DNA from: Acidimicrobiaceae bacterium
Lineage (GTDB): Bacteria > Actinomycetota > Acidimicrobiia > Acidimicrobiales > Aldehydirespiratoraceae
Reading direction: 5' to 3'
DNA length: 64,000 nt
Assembly (NCBI GenBank): GCA_009835735.1
Contig: VXWX01000112.1
Span: 1,994-65,993 of the forward strand
Part shown: piece after piece, positions 54,534 to 64,000 of the stretch
How positions within the stretch are numbered: the stretch's first letter is position 1
Layout: each line of letters opens with the position of its first letter
Translations under genes and position numbers: made by a program
The notes under the pieces: model-generated
What the model saw: only the letters and a program-made list of their open reading frames with translations
Told to the model about the DNA's origin: nothing
Database searches by the model: none

Positions 54534-55916
54534 CTAGCCGGCCACCATTGGGATGGCGGGCATGCCCTCCCGGCGTCTCAGCAGGTCCACGGTCCGCTCG
54601 TGGATCTCGGTCAGCGCCTCCGACTCGTCCACACCGCAGATCTCGCCGCCGGAGACGCAGGCCCGACCCTGAACCCAGACGTCCCGCACGTCGCTGGAAC
54701 GGCCGGCGAACACGAGGTTCCACAGGATCGGGTCATGTCCCTCCGAGAGGGCCACGGGCAGCAGGTGAGGCTGCCACAGATCGACGGTGATCACATCGGC
54801 CTGCTTGCCGACCTCTATCGAGCCGACGGCCTCGCCAATACCGAGCAGCCGAGCGCCGTCGATGGTGGCCATCCGCAGCGCTTCGTCGGCACTCACCGCG
54901 GTGGCGTCCAGGCGGGCCACCTTCTGAAGCAGCGACCCGATCTTCATGCACTCCCACATGCTCACCGAGTTGTTGGAGATCCCGCCGTCGGTGCCGAGCC
55001 CGACCACAATCCCCTGGTCCCAGAATCTCTCCAGCGGTGCGGTTCCGCCAGCCAGCTTCATGTTGCTCACCGGGCAGTGGGCCACGCCCGTGCCGGTCTC
55101 GGCCAGCACCGCGATCTCGGCGTCGTCGACGTACACGCAATGGGCCAGCACCGAGCCCGGCCGCAGGATCCCGCGCTCGCTGAAGACGTGAACGGGCCGG
55201 TCGCCAAAAAGTTCGACCACCACGTCCACCTCCTCGCTCTGCTCGCTGGTGTGGGTGTGGATGCTCACCCCGTAGGTGTCGGCCAGCTCGCCCACCCGCC
55301 GGAACATCTGCTCCGAGCAGTAGGTGATGTGCTCCAGGCCCAGCCACACCCTGATCCGCCCGTCTTGGGAGTCGTGGCAGTCGCGGATCAGCTGCTCGCT
55401 CGTCTCAAGCGTCTCGAAGAAGTGCTTGGTCGGATGGTCGGCCGCGTAGGGCACCAGGTTCGCCCGCATGCCAAGCGCGGCCGCGGCCTCAGCGCCCTTG
55501 TGTGGGTACCGGTACATGTCCATGACGGTGGTGGTGCCGCCCTTGAGCGCCTCCATGTAGCTGACCAGGTACCCGTAGTAGGCATCATCGGGCGTGAGCA
55601 CCTGGTGCTCCCGCTGGTACTCGGGCAGCCAGTCCATCAACTGGGCGTTCTCGGAGTAGCCCTTGAGCAGGCTGGAGTGGCTGTGGGCGTCGATCAGCCC
55701 GGGCAGCACCGCCAGCCGGCCACCGGCGTCGATCACAGTTGCCGAGTCGGGTATCTCGACGCTGCCGGTCGGCCCTACGGCGGTTATCACGCCGTCGGAG
55801 AAGGCCACCGAGCCGGGGTTGAAGCTCCTGGAACCGTCGTCACAGCAGTAAACGACGGCGTTGACGATGACCGTCGCGGCCTGGGTGTCCGTCTGGGCGT
55901 CCATGGATCCTTCCAC
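54534..55916 (-). CDS. Amidohydrolase-superfamily deaminase-like protein (MtaD/SsnA/guanine-deaminase-like)
   Basis: LPGLIDAHSH metal-binding motif, later HTSE and HCV motifs, and GTDG near the C-terminal third. Confidence 0.7.
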   Translation of the reverse strand: MEGSMDAQTDTQAATVIVNAVVYCCDDGSRSFNPGSVAFSDGVITAVGPTGSVEIPDSATVIDAGGRLAVLPGLIDAHSHSSLLKGYSENAQLMDWLPEYQREHQVLTPDDAYYGYLVSYMEALKGGTTTVMDMYRYPHKGAEAAAALGMRANLVPYAADHPTKHFFETLETSEQLIRDCHDSQDGRIRVWLGLEHITYCSEQMFRRVGELADTYGVSIHTHTSEQSEEVDVVVELFGDRPVHVFSERGILRPGSVLAHCVYVDDAEIAVLAETGTGVAHCPVSNMKLAGGTAPLERFWDQGIVVGLGTDGGISNNSVSMWECMKIGSLLQKVARLDATAVSADEALRMATIDGARLLGIGEAVGSIEVGKQADVITVDLWQPHLLPVALSEGHDPILWNLVFAGRSSDVRDVWVQGRACVSGGEICGVDESEALTEIHERTVDLLRRREGMPAIPMVAG

Positions 55917-55987
55917 GGCCGAAGGTAGCCGGTTGCAGGTCCGGTGTCCGCGTGCGCGAGACTGCGGCGGAATTGAGGAGGCAGCCG

Positions 55988-58579
55988 ATGGAGACAGTTC
56001 TCGGAGCTCGGTCGGGCACCGCCTACGGCGACGGATGGGTCCGCAGCGCCTGCACCATCTGCATGAACAGATGCGGGATCCTGGCCCACGTCAATGATGA
56101 CGGTGTGGTCGACAAGATCCTCGGAGACCCCGACAATCCCCACAACGGCGGCCGCACCTGCGCCAAGGGCGATGCCGGTTTCGAGGGTCTCACCGACAGC
56201 GACCGCATCACCACGCCGCTGCGGCGCACCAACCCGACCAAGGGCGTAGGCGTCGATCCGGGATGGGTGCCCATTAGCTGGGACGAAGCGCTCGACGAGA
56301 TCGCCGGCCATCTGCGCGACACCATCGCCGATGACCCCGAGAAGATCCTCTACACCAGCTTCGACATCTTCCATCTGAGGGGCGCGCTGGCGGCGTCGTG
56401 GGTGACCGGTCTAGGAATGCCGGGCTACTCCACGTGGTCGGCCGCCATCTTCTGCGGCAACAACGTGCACGGCATCGCCTACATGAATCAGAACGCATTC
56501 GAGGGCACGCCCGACCCCACCTACAGCCGCTACATCCTCAACTTCGGGGCCCAGTTCGGCTCGGTCGTGCACTACGACACCATGCATGCCACCCACGAGC
56601 TGTCGGTGCGCCGCTCCGACGTGAAGCTGGTGTCGATCGACCCGGTCTGCTCGTCGGCAGCCGCCGTCGCCGATGAGTGGGTGCCGATCCGTCCCGGAAC
56701 CGATGCGGCGCTGATCCTCGGGATGGTCGATCAGCTCCTGAACGAACTGGGCATCTACGACCGCGAGTTCCTGAAGAACTTCACGAACGCCGCCTACCTA
56801 GTCGGCCCCGACGGCCGCTATGTCCGCGACCGTCACAGTGGCAAGCCCGTGGTGTGGGACGAGCACAATGGCGCCCAGCCCTTCGACGCGGGAACGGGCA
56901 ACGCCGCACTAAGGGGCACCTACGCCGTGGACGGCGTCGAGGCCCGACCCGGACTCCAGGTGCTGGCGGACCATGTGCGCGCCTACACGCCCGAATACGT
57001 CGAGTCGGTCACCACCGTGCCGGCCTCCACGGTGCGCCGCCTGGCCCGGGAGTTCGGCGAGGCGGCCTGCATTGGACACACGATCGAGATCGACGGCGTG
57101 GAACTGCCTTACCGGCCCGCCACCGCTATCTGGTACCGGGGTCTGTCGGCCCACAAGCACTCGATGCTCAACGGCCTGTCCATCATCCTGCTGCCCACGC
57201 TGGTGGGCGCCATCGACGTGCCCGGAGGCCTGCTGGGCGAGCCCTGGGGGCTGCTGGGCAAGGTCAAGGACCGCACCTACACCTCGACGGCCAGCGATGA
57301 CGGGCTGATCTCGCAGGGATTTATCGGCGGTGGTCGGGTGGGGGGCCTGTACCCGCCGCGGCCGACCAGTGCGCCCCGCACTACCGAGATGTGGGAACTG
57401 CTGCCGTGTGCCCCTTACGGGACCGTCTTCTCGCTGCTCAACTCGGAGCAGCCAGAGCTGTTCGGATCGCCGCCGTTCCCGTCGATGCTGCTCACCTACC
57501 AGTCCAACATGATGAAGACCTCGGGTCCGCCCGACATCGTCGAGCGGTTCATCCAGCGGATCCCCTTCGTGGCGTCGATCGCCAGGCGCTTCGAGGAGAC
57601 CACGATGATGGCCGACATCGTGCTGCCCGACCTCCACTACCTGGAGCGGCTCACACCGTTCGCCTACCAGCACCTCTCCTCGGGCGACGGCCTCCACTCG
57701 GTGTACGGGGCCAAGCCGGTGGTGGCTTCGACGATCCAGGGCCCGATCCCGGGTGAGCCCTATGTGGACGCCATGCAGATCTACCTGGAACTGCTGCGTC
57801 GTGCCGGCCGGCTGTCGCACTTCAACGAGGCCTTCAACAACATCGCCAAGATGCGAGAGCCCTACCGGCTCGACCCCGATACCAGCTATTCCTACTTCGA
57901 GATCTGCGACCGCTGGCTGCGCAACACCCTGGGAGACGGCAAGGGGCTCGACTGGCACCTCAGCGACGGTCTCTGGACCGACGACAAGACCGTGCAGGAG
58001 AAGTATCCGCGGCCGTTCTTCGAGGCGAGGGCCCAGGTGTACTTCGAGTTCATGCTGAAGGCCAAGGATGACTTGGAGCGCACGGTGCAGGAGCTCGGCA
58101 TCCCGTGGGAGACCGACGACTACCAGCCGCTGCCGGACTGGAAGCCGGGCCCGGCCTACGAGCGCAGCGCCCCCTACGACCTGTTCGTCACCAACATGAA
58201 GGTCCCTAACCACGCGCTGTCCCACACCCACAAGAACTCGATCCTGAACACGCTGTCGAACCGGCACAACGACCTGAAGTCGGTGTGGATCAACCCCAGG
58301 ACGGCAGCCGCCCGGGGCATTACCCACGGCGACCTGGTCGAAATCGAGACGACCCAGGGGCGGCGCCAGACGGCCACCGCCCGGGTCACCCAGCTCGTAC
58401 ATCCCGAGGTGCTGGCCACGCAGGGCTGCGGGGGCGGCTGGACCAAGGGCAGCGGCGGCGCTGAAGTGAACTTCAACGCTCTGCTCAACATCGATGTCGA
58501 GCACATCGACTTCGTGTCGGGCGCGCTCGACTCGGCCATCGCGGCCGACGTGCGCCCGGTGTCAGGTGGCCGACGGTGA
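55988..58579 (+). CDS. Molybdopterin (Mo/W-bisPGD) oxidoreductase catalytic subunit, no Tat signal (SoeA-like candidate)
   Basis: N-terminal FeS motif C-TIC-MNRC...C. Size and domain order are those of the DMSO-reductase family. The ATG at 55988 is preceded by GAGGAGG at 8-nt spacing (the track start at 55952 is less likely). Confidence 0.8.
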   Translation: METVLGARSGTAYGDGWVRSACTICMNRCGILAHVNDDGVVDKILGDPDNPHNGGRTCAKGDAGFEGLTDSDRITTPLRRTNPTKGVGVDPGWVPISWDEALDEIAGHLRDTIADDPEKILYTSFDIFHLRGALAASWVTGLGMPGYSTWSAAIFCGNNVHGIAYMNQNAFEGTPDPTYSRYILNFGAQFGSVVHYDTMHATHELSVRRSDVKLVSIDPVCSSAAAVADEWVPIRPGTDAALILGMVDQLLNELGIYDREFLKNFTNAAYLVGPDGRYVRDRHSGKPVVWDEHNGAQPFDAGTGNAALRGTYAVDGVEARPGLQVLADHVRAYTPEYVESVTTVPASTVRRLAREFGEAACIGHTIEIDGVELPYRPATAIWYRGLSAHKHSMLNGLSIILLPTLVGAIDVPGGLLGEPWGLLGKVKDRTYTSTASDDGLISQGFIGGGRVGGLYPPRPTSAPRTTEMWELLPCAPYGTVFSLLNSEQPELFGSPPFPSMLLTYQSNMMKTSGPPDIVERFIQRIPFVASIARRFEETTMMADIVLPDLHYLERLTPFAYQHLSSGDGLHSVYGAKPVVASTIQGPIPGEPYVDAMQIYLELLRRAGRLSHFNEAFNNIAKMREPYRLDPDTSYSYFEICDRWLRNTLGDGKGLDWHLSDGLWTDDKTVQEKYPRPFFEARAQVYFEFMLKAKDDLERTVQELGIPWETDDYQPLPDWKPGPAYERSAPYDLFVTNMKVPNHALSHTHKNSILNTLSNRHNDLKSVWINPRTAAARGITHGDLVEIETTQGRRQTATARVTQLVHPEVLATQGCGGGWTKGSGGAEVNFNALLNIDVEHIDFVSGALDSAIAADVRPVSGGRR

Positions 58580-59241
58580 CCCGCTGGGGGATGGTCATCG
58601 ACGCAGCCCGCTGCGTCGGCTGCCAAGCCTGCACCGTGGCCTGCAAGACCGAGAACCAGTCACCTCTCGACGCCTGGTACGCACCCGTCATCGAGTGGGA
58701 GTCCGGCGAGTTCCCCGACGCCACCCTCAATTACCTGCCGGTGCTGTGCAACCACTGCGAGGACGCCCCGTGCGTGACCGCCTGCCCGTCGGGAGCGCTC
58801 ACGCGCCGCGACGACGGCATCGTGATGGCCGACGAGGACGTGTGCATCGGCTCTCGGGCTTGCATGACAGCCTGCCCCTACGGTGCACTGCACTTCTTCG
58901 AGGACCGCGGCACGGTGGCCGTGGAGGGCGCCCCCGCCGAGGCCGTGCCCAGCGTGCCGGAACGCTACGCGCACCAACGCCACGTGCGGGGCGCGGTGTC
59001 GAAGTGCACCTACTGCGCCCACAAGATCGACTTCGGCCTCGAGAACGGCCTCGAGGTCGGGGTGCATCCCCTGGCCACGCCCGCCTGCGTGGTCACCTGC
59101 CCGGCCGAGTGCCGGATCTTCGGCGACCTCGACGACCCCGACAGCAACGTGAGCCAGTACCTGGCCGAGCACAGCGGCGGCGAAGTGCTCAGACCGGACG
59201 CGAAGACGCTGCCGAGCACCCAGTATGTGGGGCTCCCATGA
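58576..59241 (+). CDS. 4Fe-4S ferredoxin-type subunit (DmsB/PsrB/SoeB-like)
   Basis: Multiple CxxCxxCxxxCP clusters (CVGCQACTVAC, CNHCEDAPCVTACP, CIGSRACMTACP, CTYC...CVVTCP). GTGA overlap with the upstream gene. Confidence 0.85.
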   Translation: MTRWGMVIDAARCVGCQACTVACKTENQSPLDAWYAPVIEWESGEFPDATLNYLPVLCNHCEDAPCVTACPSGALTRRDDGIVMADEDVCIGSRACMTACPYGALHFFEDRGTVAVEGAPAEAVPSVPERYAHQRHVRGAVSKCTYCAHKIDFGLENGLEVGVHPLATPACVVTCPAECRIFGDLDDPDSNVSQYLAEHSGGEVLRPDAKTLPSTQYVGLP

Positions 59242-60251
59242 CTGCGGTCAGTCCGACGGCTGGGGGAGGTGCCGGCCCCCAGAACGTGTTCATGGACCAG
59301 TTCAACCTGGAGGCCCGCACCCAGAGGGTGTGGGACATCAACCACGCCATCTGGTTCACGCTGATGGGAGTCGGCGGGGGAGTGTTCCTGGTCGGGCGGA
59401 TCCTGAACCTCACCGAGGGTCTCGGCTACCTGCTCGGGATCCCCACCGTCGATGTGGTCAGCTTCCTGGCGATCGCGGTCGGCGGGGCGATCCTGGTCGC
59501 CGATCTGGGCCGGCCCCTCCAGGCCTGGAGGGCCTTCGTCAATGTGCGCACGAGTTGGATTTCCTGGGGGGCGTGGTCCGATCTGATCTTCCTAGTCGTG
59601 GCCGGTTTGCTGGTACTCCCCGCGTTGAGCCTGGGCGGATCAGAGCCGTTCTCCGGGTTGGGATGGGATCCCCACGGCGGCGACGGTGGCGGCCTCGCGC
59701 TGGAGATCATCGCCGGCGTGGCCGCAGTGGTGGTGATGACCTACGCGGGGGCGGTCCTGGCCCGGCCCCGTGCCATCCCGTACTGGAACTCGCCGGCGGT
59801 GCCGCTTCAGTTCCTGCTGTCGTCGGCCGCGATGTCGGTGGCGGTGGTGATGCTGATCGAGGTGATCGCGGGCGAGCCGGTGAGCTCGGGTCAGATGGTG
59901 TTGCTGGGCTTGCTCGCGGCGGGCCTGACGGTGACGGTGGTCGGGCACTTGCTGGCCCGGACCGATGCTCCCGGCAAGAAGGAGAGTCTGGATCGGCTGT
60001 TGCGGGGCCGGTACCGCTCGATGTTCGTGTGGGGGGTCTTCGCGGGCGGGACGGTCGCTCCGGCGATTCTCGCCTTCGTGGGCGCCGGCGCGTCCGGCGC
60101 CCGTGGCGCGCTAGCCCTCATCTGCTGTGTGCTTCTCGTGCCGGGCGGCTTCTGGCTACGGCTGCTCACCCTCCGGGTGGGGATCTTCCCACCGGTGCAC
60201 ATTCCTGGCGTCGGCGGGCCGCGGTCTGTCGCCACGCCTGCTGGAGGCTGA
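59238..60251 (+). CDS. NrfD/PsrC-family membrane anchor subunit (SoeC-like)
   Basis: About 8 hydrophobic helices. ATGA overlap with the FeS-subunit stop. Confidence 0.75.
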   Translation: MTAVSPTAGGGAGPQNVFMDQFNLEARTQRVWDINHAIWFTLMGVGGGVFLVGRILNLTEGLGYLLGIPTVDVVSFLAIAVGGAILVADLGRPLQAWRAFVNVRTSWISWGAWSDLIFLVVAGLLVLPALSLGGSEPFSGLGWDPHGGDGGGLALEIIAGVAAVVVMTYAGAVLARPRAIPYWNSPAVPLQFLLSSAAMSVAVVMLIEVIAGEPVSSGQMVLLGLLAAGLTVTVVGHLLARTDAPGKKESLDRLLRGRYRSMFVWGVFAGGTVAPAILAFVGAGASGARGALALICCVLLVPGGFWLRLLTLRVGIFPPVHIPGVGGPRSVATPAGG

Positions 60252-60261
60252 CACTGTGGCC

Positions 60262-60768
60262 ATGACCGCGGCCGCGCTCGACGCGGCCCACGACGGCCTG
60301 CGGGCCGCGGGAATCGACTTCGTGTCGGGCCTGCCCGACGGCTGGCAGCGGCCCCTGCATGAGCGGGTCGAGATAGACCCCGAGATCCGCTATGTGCCGG
60401 TGTGCAACGAGGGCGTCGGGTTCTCGATCTGCGCCGGGGCCTGGCTGGGGGGTAAGAAGCCCGCGCTGATAATGGAGAACAGCGGGATCAGGGTGGCCTC
60501 GGAGTACATCGCCCGTATCTCGCTCGGGACCGGCGTGCCGGTCACGCTGCTGTGCTCGTACCGGGGCGACGTGGGCGAGACGGAGCACTGGGGGATCCCT
60601 CACGGCATCGTGGCCGAGCCGCTGCTGCAGGCCCTGAGGGTCAAGTACTTGGTCGTGCGCCACGTCGAGGATCTGGCTAAGTCGATCGTGCGGGCCAAGC
60701 GCATAGCTGAGGCCCAGCTCCATCCCGCGGCCGTGCTGGTGTCGGGCGACTGCGTGTGGGAGGACTGA
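60262..60768 (+). CDS. TPP-dependent decarboxylase alpha subunit (sulfopyruvate/phosphonopyruvate decarboxylase ComD-like)
   Basis: 168 aa corresponding to a TPP-enzyme N-terminal pyrimidine-binding domain (VPVCNEGVGFSICAGAWLGG). It starts 10 nt after the NrfD-like stop. Confidence 0.65.
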   Translation: MTAAALDAAHDGLRAAGIDFVSGLPDGWQRPLHERVEIDPEIRYVPVCNEGVGFSICAGAWLGGKKPALIMENSGIRVASEYIARISLGTGVPVTLLCSYRGDVGETEHWGIPHGIVAEPLLQALRVKYLVVRHVEDLAKSIVRAKRIAEAQLHPAAVLVSGDCVWED

Positions 60769-60771
60769 GGG

Positions 60772-61425
60772 GTGGCCCTGGACCGCTACGAGTGGCTGGG
60801 CCGGCTGGCCAACCGGCTGCCGGAGGACTGCCTGGTGATGTCCACCTACATCGGGGCGGTGTCGTTCGAGTGGGGCCACCACACCGAGGAGCACCATCGC
60901 ACCGCCCACCTGGGCCAGATGGGCGACGTGATCGGCCTGGCCCTGGGCCTGGCGCTGGCTCTGCCGCACCGCAAGGTCGTGTGCCTCGACGGTGACGGGT
61001 CGGTGCTCATGGAGCTGGGCCAGCTGGTGGCTATGGGTGAGCAGCAGCCCGGCAACCTGGTGGTATTCGTGGTGGACAACGGTGTTTACGAGTCGATCGG
61101 CTGGAGCGGCCAGGGCCGGCGGCCCACGGCGACGGCCGGCCATGTGGATCTCGCCGCCATCGCGGCGGGATGTGGGGTGCCCTACACCGTGGACGTCACC
61201 GCCGAGGACGAACTCGACGCCGAGATCGAGTTGGCCTTCTCCCGCAGCGTGTGCAGCTTCATCAACGTGCGCACCCGGCCCGGCCACTCCCACGTGCGAC
61301 CCCGCCGCACCGACGGCATAGAGGACAAGTACCGCTTCGTGCGCTACGTCGAGCGCCTAGAAGGCATATGGATCACCGGAGTCCCACCCCAGGACATAGC
61401 CCTCATGAAGGGCAAGGAGCACTAG
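60772..61425 (+). CDS. TPP-dependent decarboxylase beta subunit (ComE-like)
   Basis: TPP-binding motif LDGDGSVLMELGQLV...VVDNGVYES. It starts 3 nt after the alpha-subunit stop. Confidence 0.65.
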   Translation: MALDRYEWLGRLANRLPEDCLVMSTYIGAVSFEWGHHTEEHHRTAHLGQMGDVIGLALGLALALPHRKVVCLDGDGSVLMELGQLVAMGEQQPGNLVVFVVDNGVYESIGWSGQGRRPTATAGHVDLAAIAAGCGVPYTVDVTAEDELDAEIELAFSRSVCSFINVRTRPGHSHVRPRRTDGIEDKYRFVRYVERLEGIWITGVPPQDIALMKGKEH

Positions 61426-61483
61426 CTCCTAGCCGCGAAGCGAGGCGCTGCACCAGGACTGACGGGGCAGTGGTCAGAGGCGC

Positions 61484-61837
61484 TCACGCCGTGGCTACGG
61501 AAGGAACGAGCTTTCTCCTATAGGGGTCGACTGCGAGGCGCAGGCCCTCCAGTGTGTAGGCGCCGAGCAGGGGAGGGCCGTCGTCCTCACCGAAGAAGAC
61601 CCACGTCGGAGTGGTGCGACCATCGATGGTGGCGTGAGCCTGCCCGAGGTCGTACGTGACCTGCCTGCCGTCGGCGAGGGTCACGTGGTGCCGGTCGGTC
61701 GGCTCCACCCCCAATTGCCGCAGGATGGCAGACGGCACGATGCTGTAGCTCGCGCCAGTGTCGACGAGCGTTTCGATCTCGACGCTGCGCTCGCCGTCCA
61801 AACTGTCAAATCGAACCATGCAGTTGAATGTTCCCAT
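61484..61837 (-). CDS. Retropepsin-like (clan AA) aspartyl protease domain protein
   Basis: LVDTGAS active-site motif and about 117 aa. ATG at 61837. Confidence 0.6.
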   Translation of the reverse strand: MGTFNCMVRFDSLDGERSVEIETLVDTGASYSIVPSAILRQLGVEPTDRHHVTLADGRQVTYDLGQAHATIDGRTTPTWVFFGEDDGPPLLGAYTLEGLRLAVDPYRRKLVPSVATA

Positions 61838-61872
61838 TCGTGCCCCCGCCGTGCGTCCCACCGGTGTAACCT

Positions 61873-61901
61873 AATTTACATGCTGTTTACTGTTATTCCA
61901 A
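61873..61901 (-). promoter_or_regulatory. Candidate promoter for the aspartyl-protease gene
   Basis: The minus strand reads TTGGAA, a 17-nt spacer, then TAAATT. It lies within a visibly AT-richer intergenic segment. Confidence 0.3.
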
Positions 61902-61979
61902 CCAGGATGGCTTGATGGTCGCACCGTGACAACCCCTGATCGCTCAACCCGGGACCCCCAGGCCGACCGCCCGGTTCTC

Positions 61980-63113
61980 CTAGCTGGCCTCCGGGTCGGA
62001 CAGGCGGAGGTCGGCGAACTCGTGGGGGTTGCGGTCACCGACCAGCACGTGCTGGCTGCCGGCGTGCATGTCGCGGAAGCAGCGCTGCAGCGGGCCGTCC
62101 CGCAGCGCCTCGGTGCCGCACCACTCGTAGAGGCTGCGGATCAGGGCCAAGCCCTCCTGGGTGAGCAGCGTGGCCGACTGCTTGACGTTGGTGGCCAGCA
62201 CCGGGTCGCGGCCCGAGCCGGCCTCGGCCGCCTGCTCGGCCGTGCGGAACGCCTGCCGGCACCAGGTCTCGGCCGCTTCGAAGCGCGACACCGCCATGGC
62301 GAACTCGTAACGGAAGCGGGGATCCTCGGCGATGACCGACGGCGCGGCCATACGGGCCCGGACCTTGGCGATGGCCACTGCCTCGTCGATGGCTCGCCGG
62401 ATCACCCCGATCGTCCAGCCCATGTGGCCGATCTCGGTGAGGATGATCACGCCGAGGTCATACATGGGGCCGCCCCTGTACCGGGTGGGGGAGAAGAACT
62501 CGAAGGTGGCGTGGGCGGGTACGTCGGTGTCGATGCTGTAGTCGTAGGACGACGTGGCCCGCAGCCCCAGCACGTCCCAGTTGCCGAGCAACTCCACTTC
62601 GGAGCGGGGCATCATCATCAGGCGGAACTCGGCTTGCTCGCCCTCGGGCGGGGCGGTGAAGGCGCCCCCGCCAACCCAGTCGGCATGGGCAACACCCGAC
62701 CCGAAGCTGTACTTGCCGGTGAGCCGGTACGTGTCGCCGTTGGGCACAGCGGTGCCGTTGGGCGCGAACTGGCCTGCCACGACCGGAACGACACCTCCGG
62801 CGAACATCTCGTCGGTGAAGCTGTCACCGCAGTAGGCGCCGAAGAAGCAGGCGGCGGTGGCTCCGGCCATGAGGGACCACCCCACGGAGCCGTCGCCGTA
62901 GGCCACCTCGGCGAAGACGTCCAGGCAGTCGTCGATGGGCAGTTCGGCACCGCCCACCGCACGCGGCGACAAGGTGCCGTACAGGCCTGCCTCGAAGCAG
63001 GCGCTCACCAACTCCTGCGGCAGAGCGGTCGCACCGCTCTCCGCGGCCGCCGCGCCGGCGGCATCGACCGTCGAGCGCAACTCGCGGGCCCGCTCCAGCA
63101 GTTCGGATCCCAT
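61980..63113 (-). CDS. Acyl-CoA-dehydrogenase-fold flavoprotein (possibly SfnB/DszC-like monooxygenase type)
   Basis: 377 aa with an ACAD-like N-terminal and middle domain (DGSVGWSL..., GKYSFGSG). It lacks the typical ACAD C-terminal signature I would expect. Confidence 0.6.
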   Translation of the reverse strand: MGSELLERARELRSTVDAAGAAAAESGATALPQELVSACFEAGLYGTLSPRAVGGAELPIDDCLDVFAEVAYGDGSVGWSLMAGATAACFFGAYCGDSFTDEMFAGGVVPVVAGQFAPNGTAVPNGDTYRLTGKYSFGSGVAHADWVGGGAFTAPPEGEQAEFRLMMMPRSEVELLGNWDVLGLRATSSYDYSIDTDVPAHATFEFFSPTRYRGGPMYDLGVIILTEIGHMGWTIGVIRRAIDEAVAIAKVRARMAAPSVIAEDPRFRYEFAMAVSRFEAAETWCRQAFRTAEQAAEAGSGRDPVLATNVKQSATLLTQEGLALIRSLYEWCGTEALRDGPLQRCFRDMHAGSQHVLVGDRNPHEFADLRLSDPEAS

Positions 63114-63123
63114 CCGCTCGGCC

Positions 63124-64000
63124 CTAGGCGACGGTCCGAAGCGACTCGGCCATGGTGTCGATGATCCGGCCGATCTCGTCGTCGGTGATCACCAGCGGCG
63201 GGCACAGCGCCAGCACGTCGTTTATGGGCCGCACGATCACACCGCGCCGCAGCATGTCGTTGCGGACGTCCATCGACTGGCGGTTCAGCACCGCGGCCTG
63301 GACCGCGCCCTCGCCGCGGTGCGACGCGATAAGCCCGTCGGCGGCCAGCGCCGCGAGCCCCTCGGTGAGCTTGGCCCCCACATGGTTGGCCCGGTCCACG
63401 AGACCCTCGTCGGTGATGATCTCCAGGTTCTTGACCGCGGCGGCGGCCACGGTGGGGTGGCCCGAGTAGGTGTAGCCGGTGCGCAGCAGGAAGCCGGGCT
63501 CCTCGAGGTTCTCGCACACCCGGCGGCTCACGATCACGCCGCTGAGGGGCAGGTAGCCGGAGGTCACGCCCTTGGCGAAGGTCATCATGTCGGGGGTCAC
63601 GCCGAACGTCTGGGCTCCGAACCACTCGCCGGTGCGGCCGAATCCGCAGATCACCTCGTCGAGGATCAGCAGGGCGCCGTGCTGGTCGCACAGCCGCCGG
63701 ACCCCGGCGAGGTAGCCCTCCGGCGGTGGGAACACCCCGCCCGCGCCCTGCACCGGCTCGGTGATGACCGCAGCCACCCGCTCGCCGTGCTCGGCGAACG
63801 CGGTGGCCATCACCTCGATGTCGTCGTTGGGGACCTCGATGAAGTGGGGGACCAGATCGCCCCATCCCTCGCGGTTGGGTTCGATGCCCTGGGCCGAGGT
63901 GCCCCCGAAGTTGGTGCCGTGGTAGCCGTTGGTGCGCCGTATCACCACCTGGCGCTCGGCTTCGCTGGTCCGCTGGGCGTAGAGGCGGGCGAGCTTGAGT
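63124..64000 (-). CDS. Class-III (omega) aminotransferase, 5' end outside the window
   Basis: ITEPVQGAGGV, LILDEVICGFGRTG and TFAKGVTSGY (PLP Lys) motifs. The reading frame continues to the window edge. Confidence 0.85.
   Translation of the reverse strand, partial: LKLARLYAQRTSEAERQVVIRRTNGYHGTNFGGTSAQGIEPNREGWGDLVPHFIEVPNDDIEVMATAFAEHGERVAAVITEPVQGAGGVFPPPEGYLAGVRRLCDQHGALLILDEVICGFGRTGEWFGAQTFGVTPDMMTFAKGVTSGYLPLSGVIVSRRVCENLEEPGFLLRTGYTYSGHPTVAAAAVKNLEIITDEGLVDRANHVGAKLTEGLAALAADGLIASHRGEGAVQAAVLNRQSMDVRNDMLRRGVIVRPINDVLALCPPLVITDDEIGRIIDTMAESLRTVA

What the first reader, a model, noticed from the sequence alone, without database searches (positions are those of the whole stretch)
55988..61425. 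Cytoplasm-facing Mo-bisPGD/FeS/NrfD enzyme (SoeABC-like) co-operonic with a split TPP decarboxylase (ComDE-like)
Five same-strand genes have junctions of GTGA, ATGA, 10 nt and 3 nt. With the SD-supported start (ATG 55988), the catalytic subunit has only about 20 residues before its FeS Cys cluster and no twin-arginine signal, yet it is paired with an NrfD-type membrane anchor. That topology is the one known for the cytoplasmic sulfite:quinone oxidoreductase SoeABC. The two downstream genes are the N- and C-terminal halves of a TPP enzyme, as in sulfopyruvate (ComDE) or phosphonopyruvate decarboxylases. Together this suggests an organosulfonate route: sulfolactate or cysteate to sulfopyruvate to sulfoacetaldehyde, with the released sulfite oxidised at the membrane. 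No xsc, sulfolactate dehydrogenase or regulator is present in the window, and I do not know this fusion of modules into one operon from characterised systems.
Basis: partly seen in the sequence, partly recalled or inferred. Interest (0 to 1): 0.6.

Follow-up and report, generated by a model that had tools for sequence, protein, structure and literature searches.

The report
Inward-facing molybdoenzyme with split ThDP decarboxylase
A sponge-associated actinobacterium carries a real five-gene operon for a membrane-bound molybdenum enzyme that faces the cell interior plus a two-piece thiamine-dependent decarboxylase; it is not the sulfite-oxidising SoeABC system it resembles, and most likely oxidises an organic acid and removes one carbon from it.

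Summary
Five co-directional genes have junctions GTGA, ATGA, 10 nt and 3 nt. The Mo-bisPGD subunit has about 20 residues before its FeS motif and cannot carry a Tat signal. The NrfD anchor is inverted relative to E. coli NrfD and DmsC by the positive-inside rule. The last two genes are the two halves of a ComDE/Ppd-superfamily ThDP enzyme.

The sulfonate/SoeABC interpretation is not supported:
- In my tree the Mo subunit lies in a large uncharacterised, mostly Tat-less clade. Its sister is the PadBCD-like group (named phenylacetyl-CoA:acceptor oxidoreductase by JGI). Genuine SoeA, taken from an xsc-linked Azospirillum locus, branches further out.
- Among 81 genomes of the family, the Mo genes track the ThDP genes (15 of 15; 2 more carry ThDP genes only). 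They do not track xsc, which is in 64 genomes.
- Five more distant carriers lack xsc.
- Both ThDP subunits score below the curated cut-offs for ComD, ComE and Ppd. No PEP mutase was found.

In other Acidimicrobiia the ThDP pair sits beside an SSADH-like aldehyde dehydrogenase inside purine-type catabolic islands, often with the Mo genes.

Best reading: a PadBCD-type, quinone-reducing cytoplasmic oxidation makes a 2-oxo acid, which is then decarboxylated to an aldehyde. The substrate is unknown. I rate it a new variant of a known kind, of moderate interest.

The parts
54534..55916 (-). Divergent TRZ/ATZ-family amidohydrolase (460 aa; 5'-deoxyadenosine-deaminase / N-ethylammeline-chlorohydrolase-like, below the curated cut-offs). 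It is the conserved neighbour of the operon.
   Evidence: Pfam Amidohydro_1, 229 bits. NCBIfam best hits about 310 bits against cut-offs of 522-609. Present next to MoA in most same-family loci, and a 43-45% paralogue is present in distant loci.
55975..55981 (+). Shine-Dalgarno GAGGAGG, 6 nt upstream of ATG 55988.
   Evidence: Read directly from the sequence. The start is consistent with orthologue L045, whose frame is open for only 22 codons before the FeS motif.
55988..58579 (+). MoA: Tat-less Mo-bisPGD catalytic subunit, 863 aa. The FS0 motif is C22-x2-C25-x3-C29...C58. The invariant FC156GNNVH is the likely Cys ligand of Mo. An insertion at about residues 267-321, relative to PsrA and ArrA, is shared with SoeA.
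   Evidence: Pfam PF04879, PF00384 and PF01568. NCBIfam best hit PhsA, 193 bits against cut-off 694. C156, G157 and H161 are invariant in 24 sequences. AF2 model pLDDT 86; Foldseek best match ArrA, TM 0.70-0.74. Trees.
58576..59241 (+). FeS-B: four-cluster ferredoxin subunit, 221 aa. The group III motif is C90-x2-S93-x2-C96-x3-C100-P, so Ser replaces the second Cys. I predict a [3Fe-4S] cluster at the anchor-proximal position.
   Evidence: Pfam Fer4_11. In the alignment the three 60-68% clade orthologues have Ser here, the more distant Nitrososphaerales L042 has His, and SoeB, DmsB and NrfC have Cys. The [3Fe-4S] inference rests on the known NarH and DmsB-C102 precedent, recalled from my own knowledge.
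59238..60251 (+). NrfD-C: eight-helix NrfD/PsrC-type quinone-binding anchor, 337 aa, predicted N-in/C-in. The conserved GRPxxxWR...SW loop lies on the cytoplasmic side.
   Evidence: Pfam NrfD 62.8 bits. Hydropathy gives 8 TM helices. K+R count is 16 versus 1 (orthologues 19 vs 3 and 21 vs 4). E. coli DmsC and NrfD show the opposite bias.
60262..60768 (+). TPPa: PYR (N-terminal) half of the split ThDP enzyme, 168 aa.
   Evidence: NCBIfam ComD 91 bits against cut-off 148; Ppd 58 bits. PDB 9u8q_A 78 bits and 9iz3_A 40 bits.
60772..61425 (+). TPPb: PP (C-terminal) half of the split ThDP enzyme, 217 aa, with the cofactor motif GDGS-x24-DNG.
   Evidence: Pfam TPP_enzyme_C 76.5 bits. NCBIfam Ppd 119 bits against cut-off 312 and ComE 101 bits against cut-off 221. 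PDB 9iz3_B 50 bits. Motif seen in the alignment.

Best explanation
The operon encodes a cytoplasm-facing, membrane-anchored molybdoenzyme (MoABC) of an uncharacterised family, together with a split ThDP-dependent 2-oxo-acid decarboxylase (TPPab).

Shown:
- The catalytic and FeS subunits stay in the cytoplasm. They dock on an inverted NrfD anchor that holds the quinone site.
- The two modules are inherited together.
- The nearest families with a known reaction are PadBCD-like enzymes, then SoeABC. Both are Tat-less quinone reducers.

Inferred:
- MoA uses water to oxidise an activated carbon of a cytoplasmic organic acid, or its thioester or heterocyclic derivative, to the 2-oxo level. This is what PadBCD does with phenylacetyl-CoA.
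- Electrons pass through three [4Fe-4S] clusters and a predicted [3Fe-4S] cluster to menaquinone.
- TPPab then decarboxylates the 2-oxo acid to an aldehyde.
- In other Acidimicrobiia an adjacent SSADH-like aldehyde dehydrogenase oxidises that aldehyde to the acid, which is now one carbon shorter.
- In those relatives the module sits in purine-type catabolic islands, so the substrate is probably a side product of N-heterocycle or amine breakdown.

The substrate is not identified. The enzyme is not a sulfite dehydrogenase.
For: Topology:
- Junctions, Shine-Dalgarno site and short N-terminus.
- Inverted anchor by the positive-inside rule, with E. coli controls.

Phylogeny:
- (SoeA,(PadB-like,(61-row clade including this protein))), with SH-aLRT 97 for PadB-like plus the large clade.
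- phmmer bits against MoA: PadB-like 210-232, SoeA 153-196, ArrA 108, PsrA 101.

Identity of the PadB-like group:
- JGI names its members phenylacetyl-CoA:acceptor oxidoreductase.
- 55 of 57 loci have the Mo-FeS-288aa trio.
- 36 of 57 have a PaaK-like aryl-acetate CoA ligase within 10 kb.

Coupling to the decarboxylase:
- MoA and TPPb co-occur 15 of 15 among 81 family genomes, with 2 TPPb-only genomes.
- They are adjacent in both co-directional and divergent arrangements in more distant genomes.

Third step:
- An SSADH-like Aldedh (566 bits against cut-off 646) lies next to TPPab in most loci outside this bacterial family.

Direction of electron flow:
- FeS-B carries Ser at the DmsB-C102-equivalent position. 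This predicts a high-potential [3Fe-4S] next to the quinone site, as in quinone-reducing or high-potential enzymes.

Analogous pairing:
- A Nitrososphaerales relative lies within a few kb of TPP-dependent E1 alpha/beta genes (one SBP gene and the divergent NarI-like gene between).

Expression:
- Metatranscriptome contigs at 90-95% identity cover the genes.
Against: - No CoA ligase or transferase lies next to the operon here or in the orthologous loci, unlike the PadB-like loci.
- The protein is the sister of the PadB-like group, not a member. It has about 30% identity, a complete FS0 motif where PadB-like proteins have a degenerate one, and an NrfD anchor rather than the 288-aa third subunit.
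- I could not include Thauera aromatica PadB itself. The PadB label therefore rests on JGI names and gene context.
- MoABC is optional in the islands. At least 11 TPPab-Aldedh loci lack it within 8 kb.
- Five species of this genus deleted MoABC while three of them kept TPPab intact. TPPab therefore does not strictly need MoABC.
- In this bacterial family the partner Aldedh orthologue is absent.
- The order of the steps is inferred, not shown.
Confidence: 0.42

Rival explanations
1. MoABC is a SoeABC-type cytoplasmic sulfite:quinone oxidoreductase and TPPab is a sulfopyruvate decarboxylase. Together with Xsc they would degrade C3 sulfonates: sulfolactate or cysteate to sulfopyruvate, then sulfoacetaldehyde, then sulfite, then sulfate.
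For: - Same subunit architecture and cytoplasmic orientation as SoeABC.
- MoABC is the best match in this genome to a genuine xsc-linked SoeA and SoeB.
- The genome has a bona fide xsc, 990 bits against cut-off 676.
- All 15 MoABC genomes of the family have xsc (Fisher p = 0.02).
- TPPa's best NCBIfam hit is ComD.
Against: - MoA lies outside the SoeA clade (100% support for the SoeA clade).
- Identity to SoeA is 32%, confined to the N-terminal half, and SoeC has no match.
- xsc is in 64 of 81 family genomes, and 49 of those lack MoABC.
- Five of five distant MoABC-TPPab carriers lack xsc.
- The ComD and ComE cut-offs are not reached.
- The conserved neighbours are purine-type genes, not sulfonate genes.
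- xsc is on another contig. In a complete genome of the genus it lies about 1.6 Mb from the operon.
Confidence: 0.1
2. MoABC acts after the decarboxylase. TPPab makes an aldehyde and MoABC oxidises it to the acid, passing electrons to quinone (an aldehyde:quinone oxidoreductase). In this bacterial family it would replace the NAD(P)-dependent aldehyde dehydrogenase.
For: - In Aldehydirespiratoraceae the island-type Aldedh orthologue is absent. The best matches are 44-52% identical, against 64-71% elsewhere.
- In the same family MoABC has become co-operonic with TPPab.
- Other clades of the Mo family lie next to UbiD decarboxylases and E1 alpha/beta genes.
Against: - In most other genomes MoABC and the Aldedh coexist beside TPPab.
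- To my knowledge, no Mo-bisPGD enzyme is known to oxidise aldehydes other than formate or formyl groups.
- The FDH-type Cys/Sec-His motif is absent: Cys156 is followed by Gly.
- Three species keep TPPab with neither MoABC nor the Aldedh.
Confidence: 0.15
3. MoABC is a ring hydroxylase or dehydrogenase for a purine-type N-heterocycle, feeding the quinone pool. It would be functionally parallel to xanthine-dehydrogenase-family enzymes in the same islands. TPPab-Aldedh would be a separate downstream branch linked only by pathway membership.
For: - Orthologues lie among pucD-type XDH (831 bits against cut-off 784), 8-oxoguanine deaminase (598 against 532), SsnA-like, F420-LLM, adenosine-deaminase-like, Rieske and Bmp genes.
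- Islands without MoABC often carry a second, divergent XDH-family enzyme.
- Other clades of the Mo family neighbour XDH and UbiD genes.
Against: - In this bacterial family the operon lies 330 kb from the SsnA/LLM/XDH island.
- The near-perfect co-inheritance and translational coupling with TPPab point to a direct biochemical link.
- SsnA-like genes are in 64 of 81 genomes and so do not track MoABC.
Confidence: 0.2
4. Phosphonate metabolism: TPPab is a phosphonopyruvate decarboxylase.
For: TPPb's best NCBIfam and PDB hits are phosphonopyruvate decarboxylases: 119 bits, and 9iz3_B at 50 bits.
Against: - The score is far below the cut-off of 312, even when the two halves are summed (177 bits).
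- No PEP mutase was found in the genome, which is 84% complete.
- No phosphonate genes appear in any related locus.
Confidence: 0.03

Closest known systems
PadBCD, phenylacetyl-CoA:acceptor (quinone) oxidoreductase, EC 1.17.5.1 (Thauera/Aromatoleum pad cluster). Represented here by the JGI-named group in Rhodocyclaceae and Magnetospirillum (L228-L230).
   Same: - Tat-less Mo-bisPGD subunit with an FeS subunit and a membrane subunit.
- Substrate in the cytoplasm and quinone as acceptor.
- The product of PadBCD is a 2-oxo acid that a second enzyme decarboxylates, which matches the pairing with TPPab.
- Sister group in my tree (SH-aLRT 97) and highest phmmer scores of any named family (210-232 bits).
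- The FeS subunits are 40-48% identical.
   Different: - About 30% identity: a sister group, not a member.
- PadB-like proteins are about 906 aa with a degenerate FS0 motif (CxxC...C). This protein is 863 aa with a full CxxCxxxC...C motif.
- The third subunit is a 288-aa protein, not NrfD.
- PadB-like loci carry a PaaK-like CoA ligase (36 of 57). These loci do not.
- The follow-up enzyme in the pad pathway is the oxidative PadEFGHI, not a split ThDP decarboxylase.
- Thauera PadB itself was not available for comparison.
SoeABC sulfite:quinone oxidoreductase. Proxy: the Azospirillum brasilense plasmid locus next to xsc and sulfoacetate genes (L055), plus 14 proteobacterial loci.
   Same: - Cytoplasm-facing, Tat-less A subunit with FS0.
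- Four-cluster B subunit and a membrane anchor.
- A Cys at the ligand position.
- A shared insertion after residue 267.
- Second-closest named family (153-196 bits).
   Different: - A separate clade with 100% support.
- SoeA is 950-1000 aa and aligns only over the N-terminal half at 32% identity.
- SoeC is DmsC-type and gives no tblastn hit in this genome.
- SoeB has Cys where FeS-B has Ser93.
- There is no phyletic or positional link to xsc here.
ComDE sulfopyruvate decarboxylase, Ppd phosphonopyruvate decarboxylase, and the split ThDP enzymes of PDB entries 9iz3 and 9u8q.
   Same: - Split PYR and PP halves of about 170 and 190-220 aa.
- The same superfamily.
- The GDGS...DNG cofactor motif.
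   Different: - Scores are below every curated cut-off.
- The ESTGGQ-type segment seen in 9iz3_B is replaced by YESIGWSGQG.
- The conserved partner is an SSADH-like aldehyde dehydrogenase in purine-type islands. It is not Xsc, coenzyme M genes or PEP mutase.
PsrABC / PhsABC / ArrAB (periplasmic Mo-bisPGD reductases).
   Same: - Best NCBIfam family (PhsA) and best structural matches: ArrA at TM 0.70-0.74 and PsrA at TMt 0.77.
- Cys ligand.
- NrfD-type anchor in Psr.
   Different: - Those enzymes are Tat-exported and face the periplasm.
- Sequence similarity is confined to the first 260 residues or so (101-108 bits).
- The anchor orientation is opposite.

Membership tests
Mo-bisPGD (MopB / DMSO reductase) superfamily | Fe4S4, molybdopterin and MGD-binding domains, and the four-domain fold. 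| tested here: met
   All three Pfam domains are above their cut-offs. AF2 model pLDDT 86, and Foldseek TM 0.6-0.77 to ArrA, PsrA, PcrA and NapA.
SoeABC | Tat-less catalytic subunit with FeS and membrane subunits, facing the cytoplasm. | tested here: met
SoeABC | Catalytic subunit falls within the SoeA clade. | tested here: not met
   The SoeA clade (xsc-linked proxy plus proteobacterial loci) has 100% support and excludes MoA. The PadB-like clade lies between them.
SoeABC | Genomic or phyletic association with sulfite-producing enzymes such as Xsc. | tested here: not met
   49 of 64 xsc-positive family genomes lack MoABC. Five of five distant carriers lack xsc. There is no adjacency.
SoeABC | Sulfite:quinone oxidoreductase activity. 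| not testable with these tools
   Requires an enzyme assay.
PadBCD (phenylacetyl-CoA:acceptor oxidoreductase) | Catalytic subunit falls within the PadB clade. | tested here: not met
   It is the sister of the JGI-named PadB-like clade, not inside it. Thauera PadB itself could not be obtained.
PadBCD (phenylacetyl-CoA:acceptor oxidoreductase) | Three-subunit, Tat-less, membrane-bound enzyme with a cytoplasmic substrate. | tested here: met
   Here the third subunit is NrfD-type.
PadBCD (phenylacetyl-CoA:acceptor oxidoreductase) | Linked aryl-acetate CoA ligase (PadJ/PaaK-like). | tested here: not met
   36 of 57 PadB-like loci have one. None was seen in the window or in orthologous loci.
PadBCD (phenylacetyl-CoA:acceptor oxidoreductase) | Product 2-oxo acid is handed to a linked decarboxylating enzyme. 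| tested here: inconclusive
   A ThDP decarboxylase is co-operonic and co-inherited. That it takes the MoABC product is an inference.
ComDE sulfopyruvate decarboxylase | Scores above the curated equivalog cut-offs (TIGR03845, TIGR03846). | tested here: not met
   91 bits against 148, and 101 bits against 221.5.
Ppd phosphonopyruvate decarboxylase | Score above the TIGR03297 cut-off, and PEP mutase present in the genome. | tested here: not met
   58 + 119 bits against a cut-off of 312.5. No PEP mutase match in the genome.
NrfD/PsrC anchor family | PF03916 match and eight transmembrane helices. | tested here: met
   62.8 bits against cut-off 25.8. Eight hydrophobic segments.

The most novel reading that the evidence does not exclude
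MoABC-TPPab(-Aldedh) is a previously undescribed, oxygen-independent alpha-oxidation module. A cytoplasm-facing Mo-bisPGD hydroxylase, coupled to the respiratory quinone pool, would convert a carboxymethyl-type or heterocyclic intermediate to a 2-oxo acid. That acid would then be shortened by one carbon. The module would form a new branch of an F420-dependent actinobacterial purine (reductive urate-type) catabolic pathway. It would also give a first function to a large Tat-less clade of molybdoenzymes found in Actinomycetota, Chloroflexota, Nitrososphaerota, Binatota and others.
Probability: 0.3. Interest if true: 0.75.

Novelty: new variant of a known kind. Interest (0 to 1): 0.55.

Why it matters
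- Cytoplasm-facing, quinone-linked Mo-bisPGD enzymes are few. SoeABC, PadBCD and NarGHI are the examples I know of.
- The 61 sequences sampled here come from at least ten phyla and form an uncharacterised, mostly Tat-less clade beside SoeABC and the PadB-like group.
- The operon in this window is the most compact form found: catalytic complex and decarboxylase in one transcription unit. That makes it a tractable entry point for assigning a reaction to the whole clade.
- If the PadBCD-like reading holds, it shows how aerobic or microaerobic Actinobacteria feed electrons from a carbon-hydroxylation step directly into respiration.
- It also warns against annotating such loci as SoeABC or ComDE in sponge-symbiont sulfur budgets. 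These symbionts do carry xsc, so the mis-call is tempting.

Tried and rejected
- **SoeABC orthology.** Rejected by the trees and by co-occurrence.
- **Catechol dehydroxylase affinity of the Tat-bearing Eggerthellaceae relatives.** Their best PDB hit is PsrA (127 bits), not acetylene hydratase (69 bits). Published dehydroxylases cluster with acetylene hydratase (PMC7028382). I dropped this lead.
- **Formate-dehydrogenase-like chemistry**, suggested by FdhD next to some relatives. Cys156 is followed by Gly, not His, and FdhD is absent here.
- **Physical link to the purine island in this genus.** No XDH, SsnA-like, LLM or 8-oxoguanine deaminase gene lies within 100 kb either side of the operon in a complete genome. 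The SsnA-like gene is 330 kb away.
- **SsnA-like co-occurrence as a discriminator.** Uninformative, because it is in 64 of 81 genomes.
- **Literature on 'Aldehydirespirator', PDB entry 9U8Q, and SoeABC together with sulfopyruvate decarboxylase.** Nothing useful was found.
- **Obtaining Thauera or Aromatoleum PadB through genome contigs.** The 80 best loci returned were other taxa.
- **Promoter and terminator scans.** Nothing above chance.
- **Metatranscriptome contigs.** They show only presence at 90-95% identity, not operon boundaries.

Full report
**Observation**

ORF listing and direct reading of the sequence confirm five co-directional genes:
- MoA, 55988-58579
- FeS-B, 58576-59241
- NrfD-C, 59238-60251
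- TPPa, 60262-60768
- TPPb, 60772-61425

The junctions are GTGA, ATGA, 10 nt and 3 nt. GAGGAGG lies 6 nt before ATG 55988.

Domain assignments:
- Pfam places the three Mo-bisPGD domains on MoA, a four-cluster ferredoxin domain on FeS-B, NrfD on the third protein, and TPP_enzyme_C on TPPb.
- NCBIfam ranks PhsA first for MoA at 193 bits, against a cut-off of 694.
- TPPa and TPPb hit ComD, ComE and Ppd, all far below their cut-offs.

The window is G+C-rich, about 69%. It belongs to a sponge-associated Acidimicrobiales MAG of the genus now called Candidatus Aldehydirespirator, formerly UBA11606.

**Topology**

Upstream of the CxxCxxxC motif there are about 20 residues and no twin-arginine signal.
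- In the 68%-identical orthologue L045 the frame is open for only 22 codons before the motif, so no signal peptide can exist.
- The same holds for nearly all members of the wider clade. Only an Eggerthellaceae/Coriobacteriales subclade and two archaeal sequences carry SRRxF-type signals.

The positive-inside rule gives an independent test.
- The eight-helix anchor has 16 K+R on the side of its termini and 1 on the other. Orthologues have 19/3 and 21/4.
- The periplasm-facing E. coli DmsC (4/8) and NrfD (5/12) show the opposite bias.
- The conserved GRPxxxWR...SW loop, which in Psr-type enzymes meets the FeS subunit, is therefore cytoplasmic here.

**Other anatomy**

- Cys156, in FCGNNVH, is invariant across 24 sequences from 41-86% identity. 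It aligns within one position of the Mo-ligand Cys of ArrA and PsrA.
- FeS-B has Ser93 where SoeB, DmsB and NrfC have the second Cys of motif III. The three 60-68% orthologues aligned share the Ser; the more distant Nitrososphaerales L042 has His.
- From the known DmsB-C102 substitutions and NarH (my own knowledge), this predicts a [3Fe-4S] cluster next to the quinone site.
- An AlphaFold model is confident (pLDDT 86, pTM 0.89). It finds only generic Mo-bisPGD folds: ArrA at TM 0.70-0.74 and PsrA at TMt 0.77, with 18-20% identity.

**Is it SoeABC?**

I obtained a genuine SoeABC proxy from an Azospirillum brasilense plasmid. There a 1000-aa Tat-less Mo protein, an FeS protein and a DmsC-type anchor sit between sulfoacetate genes and xsc.
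- MoA shares 32% identity with it over residues 20-414. This stretch includes an insertion absent from PsrA and ArrA. The C-terminal half hardly aligns.
- The window's own NrfD gene was not picked up as a relative of SoeC: SoeC finds nothing in this genome.

In a tree of 82 sequences, SoeA forms a clade with 100% support outside a 61-sequence clade that contains MoA.

A note from an earlier run of this scan on another genome (e1-2308234) proposed PadBCD as the nearest relative. I tested that.
- Rhodocyclaceae and Magnetospirillum genomes hold Tat-less proteins of about 906 aa that match MoA over its full length.
- JGI names their close homologues phenylacetyl-CoA:acceptor oxidoreductase.
- 55 of 57 loci have a Mo-FeS-288aa trio, and 36 of 57 have a PaaK-like CoA ligase nearby.
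- phmmer scores against MoA are 210-232 bits for this group, 153-196 for SoeA, 108 for ArrA and 101 for PsrA.
- The tree becomes (SoeA,(PadB-like,(large clade with MoA))), with SH-aLRT 97.

MoA therefore belongs to neither family. PadBCD-like enzymes are its closest named relatives. I could not add Thauera PadB itself.

**Is it sulfonate metabolism?**

The genome has a bona fide xsc on another contig, 990 bits against a cut-off of 676, and no PEP mutase.

Across 81 genomes of the bacterial family:
- MoA orthologues occur in 15.
- TPPb occurs in 17, comprising those same 15 plus one intact and one fragmentary copy.
- xsc occurs in 64.

MoABC therefore tracks TPPab (Fisher p = 1.7e-14) and not xsc (p = 0.02, explained by the 79% base rate). 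Both tests are confounded by shared ancestry.

Five more distant genomes that carry MoABC-TPPab at 64-68% identity have no xsc above the cut-off. If TPPab made sulfoacetaldehyde there, no sulfite would be released for a Soe-type enzyme to oxidise.

**What travels with the genes?**

In Aldehydirespiratoraceae the constant neighbours are a TRZ/ATZ amidohydrolase upstream and a convergent aminotransferase/flavin-monooxygenase operon downstream.

Outside this family the picture is richer. TPPab is almost always next to an SSADH-like aldehyde dehydrogenase that is 64-71% identical between loci and scores 566 bits against a cut-off of 646. The pair lies among:
- 8-oxoguanine deaminase (598 against 532)
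- pucD-type xanthine dehydrogenase (831 against 784)
- SsnA-like amidohydrolase
- an F420-dependent LLM oxidoreductase
- adenosine-deaminase-like and Rieske proteins
- a Bmp-type ABC transporter

MoABC, often with a small ThiS-like gene, is present in many of these islands in several different gene orders. It is absent from at least eleven of them.

The SsnA/XDH content recalls the reductive 2,8-dioxopurine urate pathway (bioRxiv 10.1101/2025.05.19.654654). The own genome has the same island genes on contigs C73 and C85. In a complete genome of the genus they lie 330 kb from the operon.

Deeper clades of the Mo family neighbour UbiD decarboxylases, XDH-family enzymes, TPP-dependent E1 alpha/beta genes and FdhD.

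**Mechanism**

The three conserved partners make chemical sense as a chain.
1. A PadBCD-type Mo enzyme oxidises an activated carbon with water to give a 2-oxo acid and reduces quinone.
2. TPPab decarboxylates that acid to an aldehyde.
3. The SSADH-like enzyme makes the acid, now one carbon shorter.

The shown parts are topology, family placement, co-inheritance and the identity of the partners. The order of the steps, the direction of electron flow and the substrate are inferred.

Points against:
- No CoA ligase lies nearby.
- MoABC is optional in the islands.
- The partner Aldedh orthologue is absent from this whole bacterial family.
- Five species of the genus have deleted MoABC at different breakpoints. 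Three of them keep TPPab intact.

Rival readings cannot be excluded:
- MoABC as an aldehyde:quinone oxidoreductase acting after TPPab.
- MoABC as a purine-ring hydroxylase parallel to XDH.

**Expression**

Coral and sponge metatranscriptome contigs at 90-95% identity cover MoA, NrfD and the TPPa-TPPb junction. This is weak evidence that relatives transcribe the genes.

**Verdict**

The SoeABC-like architecture is right, but the sulfite/sulfonate function is not supported.

The locus is a compact form of an uncharacterised, cytoplasm-facing molybdoenzyme family coupled to a new subfamily of split ThDP decarboxylases. It most likely acts as a respiratory-linked oxidation-decarboxylation module. 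I rate it a new variant of a known kind, with interest 0.55.

Noticed in passing
L045 (whole locus), L203, L205; own genome contigs C73:2-5293 and C85:40766-47933: Actinobacterial islands combine an SsnA-like amidohydrolase, an F420-dependent LLM oxidoreductase, 8-oxoguanine deaminase, pucD-type xanthine dehydrogenase, a PALP enzyme and a Bmp ABC transporter. This looks like an F420-using variant of the recently described reductive 2,8-dioxopurine urate pathway.
   Followed up: partly
window 58852-58854 (FeS-B Ser93): The second Cys of ferredoxin motif III is Ser in the three 60-68% orthologues aligned and His in the more distant L042. SoeB, DmsB and NrfC have Cys. This is the DmsB-C102 position, so it predicts a natural [3Fe-4S] cluster next to the quinone site.
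   Followed up: partly
L157, L161, L165, L166, L209 (same genus): Five species have lost MoABC through different deletions. Two are clean, one leaves a 34-codon MoA stub, and one leaves a 192-codon stub plus FeS and NrfD fragments. TPPab is intact in three and decaying in two. The operon is accessory and is being lost repeatedly.
   Followed up: yes
window 61424-61993: Contigs from runs of unrecorded library type (X5, X26) hold a strain variant that joins 61424 to 61993. It lacks the retropepsin-like gene 61484-61861, which many related genomes also lack.
   Followed up: partly
own genome C54:12700-17958: A bona fide xsc (990 bits) follows a P-type ATPase and a MocR-like gene (aminotransferase fold, 505 aa). 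xsc is in 64 of 81 genomes of the family. In several other genera an SSADH-like aldehyde dehydrogenase lies 4-5 kb from it.
   Followed up: partly
window 61980-64000 and contig C49 up to 70683 (L048): A convergent minus-strand operon encodes a Band7 protein, a class I/II aminotransferase, an arginase-family hydrolase, an unknown 352-aa protein, a class III aminotransferase and an HsaA-like flavin monooxygenase. The content is reminiscent of guanidino-acid or arginine transaminase-type catabolism.
   Followed up: partly
L088, L097, L099, L109, L104: An Eggerthellaceae/Coriobacteriales subclade of the same Mo family, and a Bathyarchaeia sequence, carry clear Tat signals. Export was therefore gained, or retained, within an otherwise cytoplasmic clade. 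Their best PDB match is PsrA, not acetylene hydratase.
   Followed up: partly
L045:14243-14587, and L047, L057, L062, L187, L203-L207, L210: A small ThiS/MoaD-like gene (82-114 aa) follows the NrfD gene in many orthologous loci. It is missing from this window, where TPPa follows after 10 nt.
   Followed up: no
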